Part shown: positions 20,854 through 28,983 of the stretch, one piece after another
Layout of the letters: each line of letters opens with the position of its first letter
How positions within the stretch are numbered: position 1 is the first letter of the stretch
NCBI RefSeq assembly: GCF_041661885.1
Contig: NZ_JBAZTL010000009.1
Location: 3,381 to 67,380 of the forward strand
Origin: Sphingomonas sp.
GTDB taxonomy: Bacteria > Pseudomonadota > Alphaproteobacteria > Sphingomonadales > Sphingomonadaceae
Direction: 5' to 3'
Length of the DNA: 64,000 nucleotides
Notes under the pieces: model-generated
Told to the model about the DNA's origin: nothing
What the model saw: only the letters and a program-made list of their open reading frames with translations
Databases searched by the model: none
Made by a program: the position numbers and the translations under genes

Positions 20854-20866
20854 CCTCCGCCGCAGG

Positions 20867-20957
20867 CCGACCCACCCCCGGCCCCTCCCTTCCAGGGAGG
20901 GGAGGAAGATGGCCGCGCACGTCTCCCCTCCCTGAAAGGGAGGGGTTGGGGGTGGGT
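20867..20957. repeat. REP-like element: two inverted ~35-38 bp units, each with an internal hairpin
   Basis: CCGACCCACCCCCGGCCCCTCCCTTCCAGGGAGGGGAG ... CTCCCCTCCCTGAAAGGGAGGGGTTGGGGGTGGGT; the same unit recurs at 25055-25161. Confidence 0.85.
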
Positions 20958-20995
20958 TGCTCTCCGTATCGTGAAACGCCAGCCTAACGGAAAAT

Positions 20996-24183: not shown

Positions 24184-24275
24184 AAGAAGAGATTCCTCGG
24201 CCACGCGCGGAGCAATTTGACGGAGCAGCAACGCGATGGTTTGCGCCGCCGCTTCGCTCGGCTAGAGCGTGCGGC

Positions 24276-25037
24276 ATGACCGACACCCATTCCGGCTCCG
24301 ATAGCGCCCCCGGCACCGTCACCTTCGGCTACGAAGACATTCCCGCCACCGAAAAAACCGCGCGCGTCGGCGGGGTGTTTTCCAGCGTGGCGCGCAGCTA
24401 TGACATCATGAACGACGCGATGTCGGGCGGGATGCACCGCCTGTGGAAGGATCGCTTCGTCCGCCGCGTGAAGCCACGCGCGGGCGAGCAGATCCTCGAT
24501 ATGGCAGGCGGCACCGGCGACATCGCCTTCCGCCTGGCCGAATCGGGCGCGAGCGTGACCGTCGCCGACATCAACCCGCAAATGCTCGAAGTCGGCATGG
24601 AACGCGCCGCCAAGCGCGGCATTGACGGCCTGGTATGGACCGAGGCCAATGCCGAGACGCTGGTCTTCCCCGACCGATTCTTCGATGCCTATACGATCGC
24701 CTTTGGCATCCGCAACGTAACCGACATCCCCAAGGCACTGCGTGAGGCGCACCGCGTGCTGCGTCGCGGTGGGCGGTTCTATTGCCTGGAATTCTCGACC
24801 ACGCTGTGGCCCGGTTTCGCCGATGTTTATGACGTTTATTCGCACAAGGTGGTGCCGCAACTCGGCAAGCTGCTGGCGCAGGATGCCGACAGCTATCGCT
24901 ACCTGATCGAATCGATTCGCCGCTTTCCCGATATGCCGACGTTCGAGGGCATGATCTGCGATGCCGGCTTCGTGCAGACCGGAGTCGAGCCGATGCTCGG
25001 CGGGCTGGTCGCGATCCACCACGGGTGGAAGATTTGA
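24276..25037 (+). CDS. ubiE: Ubiquinone/menaquinone C-methyltransferase
   Basis: YDIMNDAMSGGMHRLWK, LDMAGGTGD, IAFGIRNVT, YLIESIRRFP. Confidence 0.96.
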   Translation: MTDTHSGSDSAPGTVTFGYEDIPATEKTARVGGVFSSVARSYDIMNDAMSGGMHRLWKDRFVRRVKPRAGEQILDMAGGTGDIAFRLAESGASVTVADINPQMLEVGMERAAKRGIDGLVWTEANAETLVFPDRFFDAYTIAFGIRNVTDIPKALREAHRVLRRGGRFYCLEFSTTLWPGFADVYDVYSHKVVPQLGKLLAQDADSYRYLIESIRRFPDMPTFEGMICDAGFVQTGVEPMLGGLVAIHHGWKI

Positions 25038-25171
25038 TGGGCAGCGCCGTTATTCTCCCCTCCCTGGAAGGGAGGGGTTGGGGGTGGGTTGGCCCGTTGC
25101 TGACCGCTGTCCTCTCCACGGGCCGACCCACCCCCTACCCCCTCCCTTCCAGGGAGGGGAGAAGGCAGTGA
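25037..25171 (+). CDS. Putative 44-aa bridging ORF across the REP-like insertion (not in the ORF track)
   Basis: ATG overlaps the ubiE stop (TGATG); TGA overlaps the ubiB start (GTGA). Reads MGSAVILPSLEGRGWGWVGPLLTAVLSTGRPTPYPLPSREGRRQ. Confidence 0.35.
   Translation: MGSAVILPSLEGRGWGWVGPLLTAVLSTGRPTPYPLPSREGRRQ
25055..25161. repeat. Second REP-like element (two inverted units) between ubiE and ubiB
   Basis: CTCCCCTCCCTGGAAGGGAGGGGTTGGGGGTGGGT ... CCGACCCACCCCCTACCCCTCCCTTCCAGGGAGGGGAG. Confidence 0.85.
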
Positions 25172-26703
25172 CCGCCCCCGTTATCCACCTGTGGCGCCTG
25201 CTCAAATGGGGTCGCATCCTCGCGCGGCACGGCGCGCTCTCGGGCATCGAGCGCGATCCCAATACGCCGACGCCGGTGCGTCGCCTCGCGCGGATCGCAC
25301 GGATCGGCGCGCGCGTCCCCGCCGTGCCGCGCTATGCCGATGCGTTTCAGGCGATCGGCCCCGCCGCGATCAAGCTCGGCCAGACGCTGGCGACGCGTCC
25401 CGACATTGTCGGCGAAGCGGCGTCCGACGATCTGATGCGGCTGCAGGACGCGCTGCCCCCCGTGCCGTACGACACGATCCACGCCGCGATGACGCGCGCG
25501 TTCCAGCGTGATCCGGCAGACTTGTTCGCCTCGATCGATCCCGTCCCGGTCGGCGCGGCGTCGATCGCGCAAGTCCATCGCGGGGTTACCACCGATGGCC
25601 GCACCGTCGCAATCAAGGTGCTGCGCCCCGGCGTCGAGGAGGACTTCACCCGCGCGATCGACACCTATGAATGGGCGGCGGCGCAAGTCGAGGCGATGGG
25701 CGGCGAACTGTCGCGGCTGCGCCCACGGCTGGTGATCGAGACGTTCAAGCGCTGGACCGCGCGCGAGCTCGATTTGCGGCGCGAAGCCGCCTCGGCTTCC
25801 GAACTGGCCGATGCGATGATGGCCGAGCCCGATTTTCTCGTGCCCAGGATCGATTGGCAGCGCACCACCGGCCGTGTGCTGACGCTCGAATGGATCGACG
25901 GAATCAAGCTGTCCAACCGCGCGGCGCTGGTCGAAGCCGGCTATGACATGCAGGCGCTGGCCAACACGCTCGTCCACGCTTTCCTGCGCCAGGCGATCGC
26001 CGAAGGCTTCTTCCATGCCGACATGCACCAGGGCAATCTGTTCGCGCTGCCGGGTGGCAAGATCGCTGCGATCGACTTTGGCATCATGGGCCGGATCGAC
26101 CGGCGCGCGCGGGTGTGGCTCGCCGAAATTCTCTACGGGCTCATCACCGGCAACTACCGGCGCGTCGCCGAGATTCATTTCGAGGCGGGCTATGTGCCGC
26201 CGCACCACAATGTCGCCGAGTTCGCGACGGCGCTGCGCGCGGTTGGCGAACCGATGCGCGGCATGGCGGTGAAGGACATGTCGATCGGCATGATGCTCGA
26301 CGGCCTGTTCAACATCACCCGCGATTTTGACATGCAGACGCAGCCGCATTTGCTGCTGCTGCAAAAGACGATGGTGATGGTGGAGGGCGTGGCGACCAGC
26401 CTCGACCCCGAGATCAATTTGTGGGACGCCGCCGCCCCGTTCGTGCGCGAATGGATCCGCACCGAACTCGGCCCCGAAGCGGCGGTGGCCGACCGGCTGG
26501 TCGAGGGCTTCCGGACGCTGTCGCGCTTGCCCGATCTGGTGCGCAACATCGAACGGCGCTTCCCCAATCCGCCCGGCGCACCGCCCGAGCCGCCGCTCAA
26601 GCATATCGAGGTGCTGCGTTTTGGCGGCGGCTGGCGTTATGCGTTGGTCGCGCTGCTGAGCTCCGGCGCGAGCCTCGGCCTGGGGTGGATGCTCTGGGGG
26701 TGA
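25168..26703 (+). CDS. ubiB: Ubiquinone biosynthesis kinase-like protein UbiB
   Basis: IKLGQTLATRPD, AASIAQVH, VAIKVLRP, FFHADMHQGN, DFGIMG, LLQKT. Confidence 0.96.
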   Translation: MTAPVIHLWRLLKWGRILARHGALSGIERDPNTPTPVRRLARIARIGARVPAVPRYADAFQAIGPAAIKLGQTLATRPDIVGEAASDDLMRLQDALPPVPYDTIHAAMTRAFQRDPADLFASIDPVPVGAASIAQVHRGVTTDGRTVAIKVLRPGVEEDFTRAIDTYEWAAAQVEAMGGELSRLRPRLVIETFKRWTARELDLRREAASASELADAMMAEPDFLVPRIDWQRTTGRVLTLEWIDGIKLSNRAALVEAGYDMQALANTLVHAFLRQAIAEGFFHADMHQGNLFALPGGKIAAIDFGIMGRIDRRARVWLAEILYGLITGNYRRVAEIHFEAGYVPPHHNVAEFATALRAVGEPMRGMAVKDMSIGMMLDGLFNITRDFDMQTQPHLLLLQKTMVMVEGVATSLDPEINLWDAAAPFVREWIRTELGPEAAVADRLVEGFRTLSRLPDLVRNIERRFPNPPGAPPEPPLKHIEVLRFGGGWRYALVALLSSGASLGLGWMLWG

Positions 26704-27818
26704 AGGACACCGCGCCCCTCTGGCTCACGGCGCCCTCGCGCTTTGCCGTGTTGAAGCCGCAGGGGGCTCGCCTTGGCCTTGCGCTGCTCGCGCTGCTGCT
26801 GCTCGCAACGTTGCTCGCGCTGGCCAGCCCGGGGCCGCCGCCGACCAGCCATGATCCGGCCCACCGTGCCGACGATCAAGCCGATGTCGTGCTCTACGAA
26901 ACCATCGTCCAGGGCATTCGTGGTGGTGGCAGTTACTATCCGGTCGCCGCGCAAGCGTTGCGCGGCGGGGATTATCCGATGCGTCCGTTCGTAACCTTCC
27001 GGCTGCCGACGCTCGCGGTCGTGCAGGCGACACTGCCGCCGACGACGATGCTGATCCTCCTCTATGCGCTGGTGGCGGGTGTCGTATTCGCCTGGTATCG
27101 GCGGTTGCGCGGGGCTTTTATCCGCCCCGCACCGCAGGGGATTGCGATGGCCTTGCTCGCGGGCGGCCTGGTCGCCTTCGTCCAAAGCGAGCTGGCCAGC
27201 TTTCATGAGATTTGGGCGGGTCTGCTCGTCGCGCTGTCGCTCGCCGTGCGTCGCGACGGCAAATGGGTGGAAGCGGTCGCCATCGGCCTTATCGCGATGC
27301 TGATCCGCGAAACCGCCGCGCTTTATGTCGCGATCATGGCGGTGTTCGCCTTTGCCGAGGGCAATCGCAAGGAAGCGATCGGCTGGGCCGCGACGTTGGG
27401 CGTGTTCGCGATCGTGATCGCCGCACATGCCCATGCCGTCTCGCTCGTGGTGCGCGAAACCGATCCCGTGTCGCCGGGCTGGGCCGGGCTGCTGGGCTTC
27501 GGCTTCTTCGTGAAGACGATGCAGCTTTCGACCGCGTTGGCAATGGCACCCCTGTGGCTCGCCGCCCCGTTGGTTGGCCTTGCGCTGTTCGGCTGGTCGG
27601 CGTGGAACAGCGCGCTTGCCCTGCGCACGCTTGCGACCCTGGTGGCCTATGCGGTGCTGCTGGCCCTGTTCGGGCGCGCCGACACCTTCTATTGGGGGCT
27701 GATGATCGCGCCCACGCTCCTGATCGGCCTTGCCTTCGCGCCCGATGGCGTGCGCGATTTGATCGCGCGCGCGCAGGACCCGCGCCGCAAGATCACCGTG
27801 ACGCGGGTGGTGCGATGA
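26700..27818 (+). CDS. Multi-pass membrane protein of unknown function (possibly GT-C-like)
   Basis: 372 aa with about 9-10 hydrophobic segments; GTGA overlap with ubiB and ATGA overlap with coaC. Confidence 0.75.
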   Translation: MKDTAPLWLTAPSRFAVLKPQGARLGLALLALLLLATLLALASPGPPPTSHDPAHRADDQADVVLYETIVQGIRGGGSYYPVAAQALRGGDYPMRPFVTFRLPTLAVVQATLPPTTMLILLYALVAGVVFAWYRRLRGAFIRPAPQGIAMALLAGGLVAFVQSELASFHEIWAGLLVALSLAVRRDGKWVEAVAIGLIAMLIRETAALYVAIMAVFAFAEGNRKEAIGWAATLGVFAIVIAAHAHAVSLVVRETDPVSPGWAGLLGFGFFVKTMQLSTALAMAPLWLAAPLVGLALFGWSAWNSALALRTLATLVAYAVLLALFGRADTFYWGLMIAPTLLIGLAFAPDGVRDLIARAQDPRRKITVTRVVR

Positions 27819-28348
27819 AGATCCTGCTGATCGTCGGCGGCGGCATTGCCGCCTACAAGGCGTGCGAGCTGATCCGGCTGTGCCGCAAGGGGGGCATTGC
27901 GGTGAAGTGCGTGCTGACCGATGGCGGCGCGCATTTCGTCACGTCGATGACGCTGGCGGCTTTGTCCGAAAATCAGGTCCATACCAGCCTGTGGGACCTG
28001 AAGGATGAAGTCGAGATGGGCCATATCCAGCTCAGCCGCGAGGCCGACCTGATTGTGATCGCGCCCGCCACCGCCGATTTGATGGCAAAGATGGCCGCCG
28101 GTATCGCCGATGACCTGGCAACCACCCTGTTGCTGGCGACCGACAAGCCCGTGCTTGCGGCGCCCGCGATGAACGTGCGCATGTGGCAACACCCCGCGAC
28201 GCGGCGCAACGTCGCCACGCTGCGCGGCGATGGCGTGACGGTGCTGGAACCCGATGACGGCGCGATGGCGTGCGGCGAATACGGCCCGGGCCGCCTGCCC
28301 GAGCCCCCGGCGATTTTCGCGGCGATCCTGGCGGCGTTGGCGGGGTGA
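27815..28348 (+). CDS. coaC: Phosphopantothenoylcysteine decarboxylase (CoaC half, standalone ORF)
   Basis: GGIAAYKA, HIQLSREAD, APAMN, MACGEYGPGRLPEP; stop TGA at 28346-28348. Confidence 0.88.
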   Translation: MKILLIVGGGIAAYKACELIRLCRKGGIAVKCVLTDGGAHFVTSMTLAALSENQVHTSLWDLKDEVEMGHIQLSREADLIVIAPATADLMAKMAAGIADDLATTLLLATDKPVLAAPAMNVRMWQHPATRRNVATLRGDGVTVLEPDDGAMACGEYGPGRLPEPPAIFAAILAALAG

Positions 28349-28983
28349 CCCGCCCCCACATCCTCGTCACCGCCGGCCCGACCCATGAACCGATCGACCC
28401 GGTGCGGTATCTCGCCAATCGCTCATCGGGCAAACAGGGCTTTGCGATCGCCGCCGCGCTGGCCGAACGCGGCGCGCGGGTGACGCTGGTGGCGGGGCCG
28501 GTCACCCTTCCCACGCCGCCAGGCGTGACGCGCATCGATGTCGAGACTGCGCGGGAGATGGCCGCAGCGGTCGACGCCGCGCTCCCGGTCGATGCTGCGG
28601 TGATGGTCGCCGCCGTCGCCGACTGGCGCGTCGAAAGCGCTGGCCAGAAGATCAAGAAAGGCGCGGGCGGACCGCCGACGCTGCGGCTCGTCGAAAACCC
28701 CGACATTCTCGCCACGCTCGGTGCCAGTACGCAGCGCCCGCGTTTGCTGATTGGCTTCGCAGCGGAAACCGAACGCGTGATCGAGCACGCCACCGCCAAG
28801 CGCGCGCGCAAAGGCGCCGACTGGATCGTCGCCAACGATGTGTCGGGCGACGTGATGGGCGGTGCAGCCAACACCGTCCACATCGTGACTGCGGCAGGGG
28901 TCGAAAGCTGGGAACGCCTGCCCAAGGACGCCGTCGCTGCGCGGCTGGCCGACCGCATCATGATGGCGCTCGCCACGGGGTAA
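28345..28983 (+). CDS. coaB: Phosphopantothenate-cysteine ligase (CoaB half, standalone ORF)
   Basis: GTG start overlapping the coaC stop; TAGPTHEPIDPVRYLANRSSGKQG, GFAAET, IVANDV. Confidence 0.88.
   Translation: MTRPHILVTAGPTHEPIDPVRYLANRSSGKQGFAIAAALAERGARVTLVAGPVTLPTPPGVTRIDVETAREMAAAVDAALPVDAAVMVAAVADWRVESAGQKIKKGAGGPPTLRLVENPDILATLGASTQRPRLLIGFAAETERVIEHATAKRARKGADWIVANDVSGDVMGGAANTVHIVTAAGVESWERLPKDAVAARLADRIMMALATG

What the first reader, a model, noticed from the sequence alone, without database searches (positions are those of the whole stretch)
25037..25171. 44-codon ORF bridging ubiE to ubiB through a REP-like insertion
Seen: the ubiE stop overlaps an ATG (TGATG). That frame stays open for 44 codons across the whole inverted-repeat element and stops in a TGA overlapping the ubiB GTG (GTGA). 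The likely ubiB SD (GGGGAG/AAGG) is partly inside the repeat's terminal hairpin. The downstream genes are also chained by GTGA/ATGA overlaps (ubiB-hyp-coaC-coaB). The first codons (MGSAVI) loosely echo the ubiB start (MTAPVI). Inference: ribosomes are relayed through the insertion, melting the hairpin and preserving translational coupling of the ubiquinone/CoA operon. This would be a tolerance mechanism for repeat insertion and possibly a regulatory checkpoint.
Basis: partly seen in the sequence, partly recalled or inferred. Interest (0 to 1): 0.65.

Follow-up and report, generated by a model that had tools for sequence, protein, structure and literature searches.

The report
Relay ORF bridging an invaded operon junction
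A hairpin-forming repeat has pushed the normally overlapping ubiE and ubiB genes 130 bases apart, and across more than 100 related Sphingomonas species the short reading frame through such inserts stays open and in phase, apparently to hand ribosomes from one gene to the next, as proposed for mycobacterial MIRU repeats.

Summary
The ubiE stop (TGA 25035-37) overlaps an ATG. That frame runs 44 codons through a two-armed palindromic repeat and ends in a TGA overlapping the ubiB GTG (25168). The predicted hairpin (-116 kcal/mol) pairs the ubiB Shine-Dalgarno site and start codon.

In 164 congeners the junction is a 4-nt TTGA overlap in 35 species. The other 129 carry a spacer of 4-427 nt, made of several unrelated repeat families.
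- Phase: 44 of 53 distinct spacer lengths are 1 mod 3 (P = 1e-13).
- Openness: the bridging frame has 0 stops in 3442 codons, against 66 and 60 in the other two frames.
- Exceptions: nearly all have one stop 1-7 nt before the ubiB start.
- Peptide: its sequence is not conserved.

hisG-hisD, sufD-sufS and gspE-gspF in this genome show the same architecture. The first two also show it across relatives.

The idea is not new. MIRUs and integron attI/attC short ORFs are precedents, so this is a new member of a known kind.

The repeat units have the BoxC/PIT triplex-motif architecture. They look like gene-less copies of hairpin-bracketed DUF559 nuclease cassettes. Translation itself is untested.

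The parts
24273..25037 (+). ubiE (C-methyltransferase), upstream gene. Its last codons ATT TGA contain the TTG that serves as the ubiB start codon in relatives without an insert.
   Evidence: NCBIfam TIGR01934, 260 bits, above cut-off. The TTGA overlap state occurs in 35 of 164 congeners.
25037..25171 (+). 44-codon relay ORF. Its ATG overlaps the ubiE stop (TGATG) and its TGA overlaps the ubiB start (GTGA).
   Evidence: The frame is open and in phase in 104 of 117 unique congener junctions. The peptide is not conserved and has no Pfam match.
25057..25089 (+). Left repeat unit with three blocks: CCCCTCCCT, loop GGA, AGGGAGGGG, loop TTG, GGGGTGGGT. This is a hairpin plus a mirror-image G/T block, the BoxC/PIT/TMECO-type architecture.
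   Evidence: 9/9 Watson-Crick pairs and 9/9 mirror triads. About 58 such hairpins lie in the genome. TMECO consensus from PMC4666352.
25126..25159 (-). Right repeat unit, an inverted copy of the left one. With the left unit it forms a REPIN-like dimer.
25053..25163 (.). The whole inverted-repeat element: 43-nt arms and a 25-nt centre. It forms a long hairpin in the mRNA.
   Evidence: the repeat finder pair I1. Fold of -116.4 kcal/mol, z = -10.6.
25156..25165 (+). ubiB Shine-Dalgarno-like stretch GGGGAGAAGG. GGAG at 25158-61 lies 6 nt before the GTG. Most of the stretch belongs to the right arm and is base-paired in the predicted fold.
   Evidence: Pair table of the minimum-energy fold. An SD-like motif is present in 55 of 84 unique junctions with long spacers and in 0 of 7 unique overlap-state junctions.
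25168..26703 (+). ubiB, downstream gene. Its GTG start is paired with 25045-25047 in the predicted fold. Its second codon ACC supplies the A of the relay ORF's TGA.
   Evidence: NCBIfam TIGR01982, 521 bits, above cut-off. The start is fixed by alignment of 164 homologues, all matching from query residue 1 with an NTG start. Pairing.
26700..28348 (+). Downstream chain of 4-nt stop/start overlaps: GTGA at 26700, ATGA at 27815 and GTGA at 28345. It shows that the operon is otherwise tightly coupled.
   Evidence: Sequence read. CoaC-like and CoaB-like halves identified.
20860..20958 (.). A second copy of the same repeat family in the window. Its two units are in divergent orientation, behind a stop codon and not inside an operon junction.

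Best explanation
The 44-codon frame is a relay ORF, kept by selection for being translated and not for its peptide.

History. In this genus, and across the order, ubiE and ubiB are adjacent and tightly linked. The basal arrangement is a 4-nt overlap in which the ubiB TTG start shares bases with the ubiE TGA stop (TTGA). A palindromic repeat landed in this junction. It is a REPIN-like dimer of two BoxC/PIT-type hairpin units, probably a gene-less derivative of hairpin-bracketed DUF559 nuclease cassettes. The insert moved the ubiB start 130 nt downstream.

Proposed mechanism (inferred):
1. Ribosomes finishing ubiE restart at the old initiation site, now TTG-ATG on the ubiE stop.
2. They translate through the insert in the frame of the ancestral ubiB start. 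In doing so they unwind a hairpin of about -116 kcal/mol that otherwise pairs the ubiB SD (GGAG 25158-61) and GTG.
3. They terminate on the TGA inside GTGAcc, exactly on the ubiB start codon, where they can reinitiate or leave the site open for a new 30S subunit.

Shown here: the anatomy, the predicted pairing of SD and start, and strong purifying selection on the phase and openness of this frame across many independent length changes, repeat families and three junctions.

Inferred: that the frame is translated, and that its translation raises UbiB synthesis.
For: - Anatomy: TGATG start, GTGA end; SD and GTG are paired in the minimum-energy fold.
- Spacer states: of 164 congeners, 35 have the TTGA overlap and 129 have spacers of 4-427 nt.
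- Phase: 104 of 117 unique junctions and 44 of 53 distinct lengths are 1 mod 3 (P = 1.3e-13).
- Openness: the bridging frame has 0 stops in 3442 codons, against 66 and 60 in the other frames. For spacers of 100 nt or more it is open in 55 of 55, against 22 and 16 of 55.
- Exceptions: of the 13 loci out of phase, 9 carry a single stop in the bridging frame 1-7 nt before the ubiB start, and one carries it 35 nt before. The other 3 have 5-6 nt spacers behind a TAA or TAG stop, with no start codon on the stop.
- Tree test: 78 spacer-length changes but only 11 phase changes. The null mean is 42.6 and the minimum 31.
- Unrelated inserts: at least four repeat families, plus a whole DUF559 gene in L069, occupy the site and all obey the rule.
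- Start codons: a start codon sits on the ubiE stop in 63 of 84 long-spacer junctions and 3 nt earlier in 13 more. After separation ubiB mostly has ATG or GTG and an SD-like motif.
- No peptide conservation: species read the same arms in different phases.
- Other junctions: the same architecture occurs in this genome at hisG-hisD, sufD-sufS and gspE-gspF. In relatives it occurs in 8 of 10 hisG-hisD inserts and 10 of 14 sufD-sufS inserts.
- Control: outside the family, where spacers are tiny and ubiB lacks the NTGAcc start, the three phases are mixed (7, 9 and 5 loci).
- Other signals: no promoter-like or intrinsic-terminator-like site in 24700-25500.
- Precedent for the mechanism: MIRUs (review PMC12548453) and short ORFs in integron attC and attI sites (PMC8876359).
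Against: - No ribosome profiling, proteomic or reporter data exist for this organism. RNA evidence is one low-depth contig from a run only guessed to be RNA. It spans ubiE into the element (24655-25161).
- Eight of 84 long-spacer junctions, and many 7-10 nt spacers, have no canonical start codon on the ubiE stop (CTG only) yet keep the phase. Phase could therefore partly reflect inheritance or a constraint other than relay.
- The repeat arms contain no stop codon in any frame of this strand. An open frame alone is therefore cheap: the other frames are open in 30-40% of long spacers.
- Five other same-strand dimers in this genome lack a bridging ORF, so the relay is not universal for the repeat family.
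- The sequences are related species, so the binomial P values overstate independence. The tree-based test answers this only in part, and that tree rests on 444 nt.
Confidence: 0.75

Rival explanations
1. Insulation only. The old initiation site at the ubiE stop stays active whether or not this is useful. Selection then only ensures that these ribosomes stop before they run out of frame over the ubiB start. The ORF limits damage and does not deliver ribosomes.
For: The phase rule places the stop exactly at NTGA. In out-of-phase spacers a stop lies just before the start. Phase is also kept in tiny spacers that have no good start codon.
Against: Under pure insulation an early stop anywhere in the spacer would serve equally well. 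Yet there are 0 premature stops in 3442 codons, against about 63 expected from the other frames. Most long spacers have gained a strong ATG on the ubiE stop, 55 TGATG among 84. That gain is the opposite of what damage limitation predicts.
Confidence: 0.08
2. Anti-polarity. Translation of the spacer is kept because an untranslated, C-rich, structured stretch inside the operon would expose the mRNA to Rho-dependent termination or RNase attack. Ribosome cover protects the ubiB-coaBC part of the transcript without feeding ubiB initiation directly.
For: The right arm is very C-rich and G-poor (CCGACCCACCCCCTACCCCCTCCCTTCC). The whole spacer is kept translatable up to the next start. The downstream genes are chained by overlaps.
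Against: The C-rich arm is predicted to be paired with the G-rich arm, which disfavours Rho loading. This model does not require termination exactly on the start codon, which is what is observed. It is compatible with the relay model and may act together with it.
Confidence: 0.1
3. The frame is intrinsic to the mobile element and not host-selected. The repeat derives from DUF559 cassettes whose ORF reads through the arms and ends on the next gene's start. The open frame would be a legacy of that design, or of a phase-specific insertion mechanism, as proposed for MIRUs.
For: In L069 a whole DUF559 gene fills the site with overlaps at both ends. Of 31 DUF559 ORFs, 14 end on the start codon of a long downstream ORF. 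The sORF tail ...PLPSREGRRQ* resembles DUF559 ORF tails such as ...PLPFREGRKK*.
Against: Dimers of this family vary in unit spacing (68-71 nt) without a fixed phase. Different species read the same arms in different phases. Unrelated repeat families and non-repeat spacers obey the same phase rule. After insertion, 78 length changes still preserved phase. Five same-strand copies elsewhere in the genome have no bridging frame.
Confidence: 0.05
4. The ORF encodes a functional small protein, or it is a chance open frame in G+C-rich DNA.
For: A 44-aa ORF has good start and stop contexts. High G+C makes stops rare, and the ubiB frame is also open across the element.
Against: Peptide length ranges from 1 to 142 codons. 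Sequences are unrelated between species and are read in different phases. There is no Pfam match. Chance is excluded by the phase and stop statistics.
Confidence: 0.02

Closest known systems
MIRUs, mycobacterial interspersed repetitive units in intercistronic regions such as senX3-regX3 (Supply et al. 1997, Mol Microbiol 26:991, as summarised in review PMC12548453)
   Same: A short dispersed repeat sits at a stop/start junction inside an operon. It carries a small ORF whose ends overlap the flanking genes' stop and start. The proposed role is to keep translational coupling so that the insertion is harmless.
   Different: MIRUs are direct, tandem-type units with an ORF built into the unit. Here the elements are palindromic hairpin dimers that bury the downstream SD and start. 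The frame is not fixed relative to the element, because species read the arms in different phases. Several unrelated repeat families at one site follow the rule. The host is an alphaproteobacterium. The support here is comparative: 164 species and three junctions.
Short ORFs in integron attC sites, and ORF-11, ORF-17 and ORF-18 in attI1 (Hanau-Bercot et al. 2002; Jacquier et al. 2009; Papagiannitsis et al. 2017; reviewed in PMC8876359)
   Same: A hairpin-forming recombination or repeat site between co-transcribed genes hinders translation of the next gene. A short ORF of no peptide value runs through it, prevents stem-loop formation and passes ribosomes on by termination-reinitiation.
   Different: Those are integron recombination sites on mobile resistance platforms and were shown by mutagenesis. 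Here the sites are chromosomal housekeeping operons, the elements are BoxC/PIT-like repeats, and the evidence is evolutionary only.
BoxC / PIT / TMECO intrastrand triplex-motif repeats of E. coli and many bacteria (PMC4666352)
   Same: The unit architecture is identical: a pyrimidine block, a loop, the complementary purine block, a 3-nt loop, then a mirror G/T block. Units are intergenic and often occur as inverted pairs.
   Different: This concerns the DNA element, not the relay ORF. That paper found no link to gene expression, operon arrangement or mobility genes in E. coli. Here the copies sit in operon junctions with a selected reading frame, and the family brackets DUF559 genes.
REP/REPIN elements with RAYT transposases, and REP effects on translation and mRNA stability
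   Same: Short palindromic extragenic repeats occur singly or as inverted dimers, typically just behind stop codons, in tens of copies per genome.
   Different: The genome has no Y1 transposase (RAYT) gene. The units carry a third mirror block. The associated gene is a DUF559 (Vsr-like fold) nuclease.
Rickettsia palindromic elements (RPEs) inserted in frame in protein genes (own knowledge: Ogata et al. 2000)
   Same: Palindromic repeats are tolerated inside translated sequence because they keep a reading frame open.
   Different: RPEs become part of the host protein. Here the frame is a separate ORF between two genes, although C3:316470 in this genome may be an RPE-like in-frame case.

Membership tests
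Relay (bridging) ORF in an intercistronic repeat, MIRU-like | The repeat lies between two co-oriented genes of one operon that overlap or abut in genomes without the repeat. | tested here: met
   There is a TTGA overlap in 35 of 164 congeners. ubiE and ubiB are adjacent in all 30 loci fetched across the order.
Relay (bridging) ORF in an intercistronic repeat, MIRU-like | The small ORF's start overlaps or abuts the upstream stop, and its stop overlaps or abuts the downstream start. | tested here: met
   TGATG at 25035-39 and GTGA at 25168-71. The same holds in 104 of 117 unique congener junctions.
Relay (bridging) ORF in an intercistronic repeat, MIRU-like | The frame is maintained by selection while the peptide is not. 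| tested here: met
   0 stops in 3442 codons against 66 and 60. 44 of 53 lengths are in phase. 78 length changes against 11 phase changes. Peptides are unrelated and read in different phases.
Relay (bridging) ORF in an intercistronic repeat, MIRU-like | The ORF is translated, and its translation is needed for expression of the downstream gene. | not testable with these tools
   No Ribo-seq or reporter data. Only one low-depth contig from a run guessed to be RNA spans ubiE into the element.
BoxC / PIT / TMECO intrastrand triplex motif | Three consecutive blocks: a pyrimidine block, the complementary purine block, then a third block mirroring the purine block (G*G, and A or T opposite A), with short loops. 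| tested here: met
   Both units give 9/9 Watson-Crick pairs and 9/9 mirror triads, the same layout as E. coli TMECO no. 2 (consensus in PMC4666352).
BoxC / PIT / TMECO intrastrand triplex motif | The unit forms an intrastrand DNA triplex. | not testable with these tools
   Triplex formation was shown in vitro only for E. coli oligonucleotides (PMC4666352). Nothing was measured for this sequence.
REP/REPIN-RAYT system | A RAYT (Y1 transposase, PF01797) gene is present and flanked by the genome's REPs. | tested here: not met
   PF01797 has no match in the 100%-complete genome, while the control genomes score.
REP/REPIN-RAYT system | Short palindromic units, dispersed in tens of copies, occur singly and as inverted dimers. 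| tested here: met
   45 full units and 58 hairpin cores in 38 loci, with many convergent dimers at 68-71 nt spacing.
Gene-less (MITE-like) derivative of hairpin-bracketed DUF559 cassettes | A DUF559 gene in the same genome is bracketed by inverted copies of the same repeat family. | tested here: met
   C3:121980-122285 is flanked by family-a units at 121890(+) and 122304(-). All 5 DUF559 genes of the genome, and 29 of 31 across relatives, are flanked by inverted hairpin arms, with a median score of 65 against 19 for controls.
Gene-less (MITE-like) derivative of hairpin-bracketed DUF559 cassettes | The DUF559 protein recognises or mobilises the repeats. | not testable with these tools
   Association only. 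No paper in the library describes it.
Intrinsic terminator or promoter in the spacer | A G+C-rich hairpin followed by a T-run, or -35/-10 hexamers. | tested here: not met
   0 terminator-like and 0 promoter-like sites in 24700-25500.

The most novel reading that the evidence does not exclude
The BoxC/PIT-type hairpin repeats of these bacteria may be the ends of a family of small selfish cassettes whose only gene is a DUF559 (Vsr-fold) nuclease. These cassettes and their gene-less dimers may preferentially settle on, or survive at, NTGA stop/start overlaps of housekeeping operons. Observed sites are ubiE-ubiB, trpB-trpA, accD-folC, hisG-hisD, sufD-sufS and gspE-gspF. They may be 'translationally transparent': their arms are stop-free in all frames. 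The nuclease would be expressed by coupling to the upstream host gene and would end on the downstream start. The gene-less copies would leave a relay ORF that the host then maintains.
Probability: 0.3. Interest if true: 0.8.

Novelty: new member of a known kind. Interest (0 to 1): 0.55.

Why it matters
Relay ORFs through intercistronic repeats were proposed for MIRUs in 1997 and shown for integron sites, but they are still treated as curiosities. This locus gives an unusually clean natural experiment. One junction was invaded again and again by different repeats in a genus of over 400 species. Phase and openness of one frame were conserved through about 78 length changes, while the peptide drifted freely.

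That is direct evolutionary evidence that bacteria pay to keep ribosomes travelling across inserted hairpins. It also explains how palindromic repeats can sit inside essential operons without harm.

There are three practical consequences:
- Annotators should not call such frames 'hypothetical proteins', nor ignore them.
- Operon engineers get a natural design rule: start on the stop, stop on the start, spacer length 3n+1.
- The link to DUF559 cassettes offers a handle on the long-orphan BoxC/PIT repeats.

Tried and rejected
- Rfam search of 24800-25400 at E <= 1: only sub-threshold hits to eukaryotic miRNA-precursor hairpins. This is generic hairpin noise, not a known RNA family.
- RAYT search: none, so I do not file the element as REP/RAYT.
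- Promoter and terminator scan: nothing.
- Public reads: only Logan contigs of metagenomes and a few RNA or guessed-RNA runs at depth 2-5. They do not show translation and barely show co-transcription. REP copies from elsewhere pile up on the arms, so depth there is meaningless.
- The 'MGSAVI/MTAPVI echo' read as a target-site duplication: rejected. Identity is 83% over 12 nt, it is not shared by relatives, and other copies of the family show no duplication at their flanks.
- My first gene-likeness filter was too strict and missed ubiE. I replaced it with a local test.
- An off-by-one error gave wrong phase classes. It was corrected, and only one search is cited for statistics.
- The frame chooser picked wrong frames for some DUF559 loci and crashed. 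It was redone with tblastn-anchored frames.
- Literature searches for DUF559 with repeats found no description of the association.
- A functional micropeptide was considered and rejected.
Full report
**1. What is there**

Its genome is 3.66 Mb with 63.9% G+C. It carries ubiE at 24273-25037 and ubiB at 25168-26703. Both score above the NCBIfam cut-offs for TIGR01934 and TIGR01982.

The ubiE stop TGA (25035-37) shares its A with an ATG. That frame is open for 44 codons. Its TGA (25169-71) shares TG with the ubiB GTG start.

Between the genes lies an inverted repeat with 43-nt arms (25053-95 and 25121-63), and each arm holds its own 9-bp hairpin. As RNA the region folds at -116 kcal/mol, z = -10.6. 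In the minimum-energy fold the ubiB SD-like GGAG (25158-61) and the GTG itself are paired, the GTG with 25045-47 inside the small ORF. There is no promoter-like or terminator-like site and no Rfam family.

**2. What the element is**

The unit CCCCTCCCT-GGA-AGGGAGGGG-TTG-GGGGTGGGT occurs about 45-58 times in the genome. Copies are single, or paired in convergent or divergent orientation. One more copy lies in the window at 20860-20958.

The unit has three blocks: a hairpin followed by a mirror-image G/T block. Both units of this element score 9/9 pairs and 9/9 mirror triads. This is the BoxC/PIT/TMECO 'intrastrand triplex motif' architecture described for E. coli and many other bacteria (PMC4666352).

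The genome has no RAYT gene, so this is REP-like in form but not a REP/RAYT system. It does have five DUF559 genes, and every one is bracketed by inverted hairpin arms. One of them (C3:121980) has arms of exactly this family. Across this genome and relatives, 29 of 31 DUF559 genes are so bracketed, with a median inverted-repeat score of 65 against 19 for shifted controls. The dimer between ubiE and ubiB therefore looks like a gene-less copy of such a cassette.

Earlier notes of this scan made the same DUF559/BoxC link in other genomes. I treated them as leads and tested the link here. The paper library holds no description of it.

**3.

I collected the ubiE-ubiB junction from 164 species of the genus. 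The ubiB start is fixed by homology: all align from residue 1, with an NTG codon.
- 35 species have a 4-nt overlap, TTGA. The ubiB TTG start lies on the ubiE stop, the classical coupled arrangement.
- The other 129 have spacers of 4-427 nt.
- Spacer lengths fall almost only on 3n+1: 4, 7, 10, 13, 16, 19, 25... 130... 316, 427.
- That is 104 of 117 unique junction sequences, and 44 of 53 distinct lengths (binomial P = 1.3e-13).

With that phase, the frame that begins on the last base of the ubiE stop ends on the TGA inside NTGAcc at the ubiB start. It is also the frame of the ancestral TTG start.
- In all 104 in-phase unique junctions this frame has no stop: 0 in 3442 codons. The other two frames have 66 and 60.
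- For spacers of 100 nt or more it is open in 55 of 55, against 22 and 16 of 55.
- Thirteen loci are out of phase. Nine carry one stop in this frame 1-7 nt before the ubiB start, and one carries it 35 nt before. The other three have 5-6 nt spacers behind a TAA or TAG stop.
- On a tree of the flanking coding sequence, parsimony infers 78 changes of spacer length but only 11 changes of phase. The null mean is 42.6 and the minimum of 1000 shuffles is 31.

**4. Independence and controls**

The spacers belong to several unrelated families:
- the CCCCTCCC/GGGAGGGG type with different loops;
- a CCTCCCCGG...GGGGAGGGGGACC type;
- a GCGAAGGCGCGAAG-rich type of 117-316 nt that uses TAGTG as its start overlap;
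- CCCCGGC types;
- short non-repeat spacers.

In L069 a complete DUF559 gene sits between REP arms and is read in one frame from an ATGA overlap to the NTGA overlap.

Close relatives of the window's genome differ. One has a 127-nt insert of another loop type. Two have a 13-nt spacer that reads TTG ATG GGG CGT AGG AAA TGA. The same arms are read in different phases in different species, for example LPSLEGRG, PLPGREG and PLPAREG. The peptide is therefore not conserved and the frame is not fixed to the element. Dimers elsewhere in the genome vary from 68 to 71 nt in unit spacing, so the element itself has no fixed phase.

Outside the family ubiE and ubiB are still adjacent with tiny gaps, but the ubiB start is not NTGAcc there. 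In those loci the three phases are mixed, at 7, 9 and 5.

**5. Start signals**

Among 84 unique long spacers (25 nt or more), an ATG or GTG lies on the ubiE stop in 63 and an NTG lies 3 nt earlier in 13. Eight have none. TGATG cannot be inherited from the TTGAcc state, so it was gained with or after insertion.

After separation, the ubiB start codon is ATG in 39, GTG in 39 and TTG in 6, where the overlap state has almost always TTG. An SD-like motif, often supplied by the right arm, is present in 55 of 84. In 52 of 81 unique junctions with spacers of 30 nt or more, at least 75% of positions -15 to -4 are paired in the predicted fold.

**6. Generality**

In this genome three more dimers between co-oriented genes have the same architecture:
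- hisG-GTGA...42 codons...TAATG-hisD;
- sufD-GTGA...43 codons...ATGA-sufS;
- gspE...TTG, 57 codons, ending on ATGCCTGA of gspF.

In congeners the basal state of hisG-hisD and sufD-sufS is again an NTGA overlap. A relay frame from the old start codon to the new one is present in 8 of 10 hisG-hisD inserts and 10 of 14 sufD-sufS inserts. For the sufD-sufS misses the start assignment is uncertain.

Five other same-strand dimers have no bridging frame. In those the downstream gene has its own SD beyond the hairpin, so they are probably not coupled pairs.

**7. Mechanism and rivals**

The absence of premature stops argues that ribosomes must reach the ubiB start, not merely be stopped before it. That favours a relay over pure insulation. 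The relay could work by termination-reinitiation at NTGA, by unmasking the paired SD and start, or by both.

Protection from Rho or RNases by ribosome cover is a compatible co-benefit that sequence cannot separate. A functional peptide and chance are excluded. An element-intrinsic frame explains part of the pattern: DUF559 ORF tails read the right arm as ...PLPxREG...* and 14 of 31 end on a downstream start. It does not explain the phase rule across unrelated spacers and later length changes.

**8. What is known**

The idea has clear precedents:
- MIRUs, whose small ORFs overlap the flanking genes (Supply et al. 1997, via PMC12548453).
- Integron attI ORF-11, ORF-17 and ORF-18, and short ORFs in attC hairpins, which relieve the stem-loop barrier by termination-reinitiation (PMC8876359).

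Other agents of this scan reported similar relay ORFs in other phyla. Those are unchecked AI notes and I did not use them as evidence.

I therefore class this as a new member of a known kind. It is notable for the depth of the comparative evidence and for the link between BoxC/PIT-type repeats, DUF559 cassettes and operon junctions.

**9. Limits**

Translation of the frame is inferred. The only RNA hint is one low-depth contig spanning 24655-25161 in a run guessed to be RNA. The P values treat lengths or sequences as independent. The tree test rests on 444 nt of flanks. Gene calls for the genome-wide survey were home-made.

Noticed in passing
Own genome G000: C3:121980-122285, C4:287331-287651, C4:289477-289794, C3:426477-426776, C6:43484-43795 (loci L166-L170); relatives L171-L197: Every DUF559 (PF04480) gene of the genome is bracketed by inverted hairpin-plus-G-box arms, and each has its own arm family with 8-68 gene-less copies. 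Across relatives 29 of 31 are bracketed. No RAYT gene is present. DUF559 looks like the partner gene of these BoxC/PIT-type repeats.
   Followed up: partly
G000 C4:287331-287651 and C4:289477-289794: Two DUF559 cassettes sit inside classical coupled junctions. One lies between accD-like and folC-like genes, and its ORF ends TGATG on the folC start. The other lies between trpB (ATGA) and trpA, and its ORF ends GTGA on the trpA start. Overall 14 of 31 DUF559 ORFs end on the start codon of a long downstream ORF.
   Followed up: partly
L069 (G294:C188:987-1744): At the same ubiE-ubiB site this relative carries a whole DUF559 gene between REP arms. It is read as one 142-codon frame from an ATGA overlap with ubiE to an NTGA overlap with ubiB.
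   Followed up: partly
L022, L110, L131, L133-L135, L160, L161, also L117, L142, L145, L036, L153, L104 (ubiE-ubiB spacers of 117-316 nt): A different, unidentified repeat family occupies the junction in a clade whose ubiE ends in TAG. It is rich in GCGAAGGCGCGAAG / CTCCGCGTCTCCGCG inverted runs. The relay frame starts with GTG on the stop (TAGTG) and stays open for up to 105 codons, while the other frames hold 3-4 stops.
   Followed up: no
G000 C3:316470-316572: Here an ATG overlapping the upstream stop (ATGA) opens a frame that runs through the repeat in frame with the 375-codon downstream gene. The repeat may be translated as an N-terminal extension, as with Rickettsia palindromic elements, or the true start lies beyond it.
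   Followed up: no
window 25032-25037 and the same place in relatives: The last sense codon of ubiE is ATT (Ile) in most species, although third positions of this genome's gene-like ORFs are about 70-90% G+C. ATT+TGA creates the TTG that is the ubiB start in the overlap state. The rare codon looks maintained for that reason.
   Followed up: no
window 20860-20958: A second copy of the repeat family has its two units in divergent orientation. It lies about 10 nt behind a stop codon and before a convergent gene, so it is not at an operon junction and has no bridging frame.
   Followed up: partly
window 27815-28983: coaC and coaB are separate ORFs joined by a GTGA overlap instead of a fused coaBC. 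Each half matches half of TIGR00521.
   Followed up: no
window 25038-25246, run X2: A related strain in a public run ('organism A') has a contig that matches ubiE up to 25038 and then skips or replaces about 207 nt. This is another junction variant in nature.
   Followed up: no
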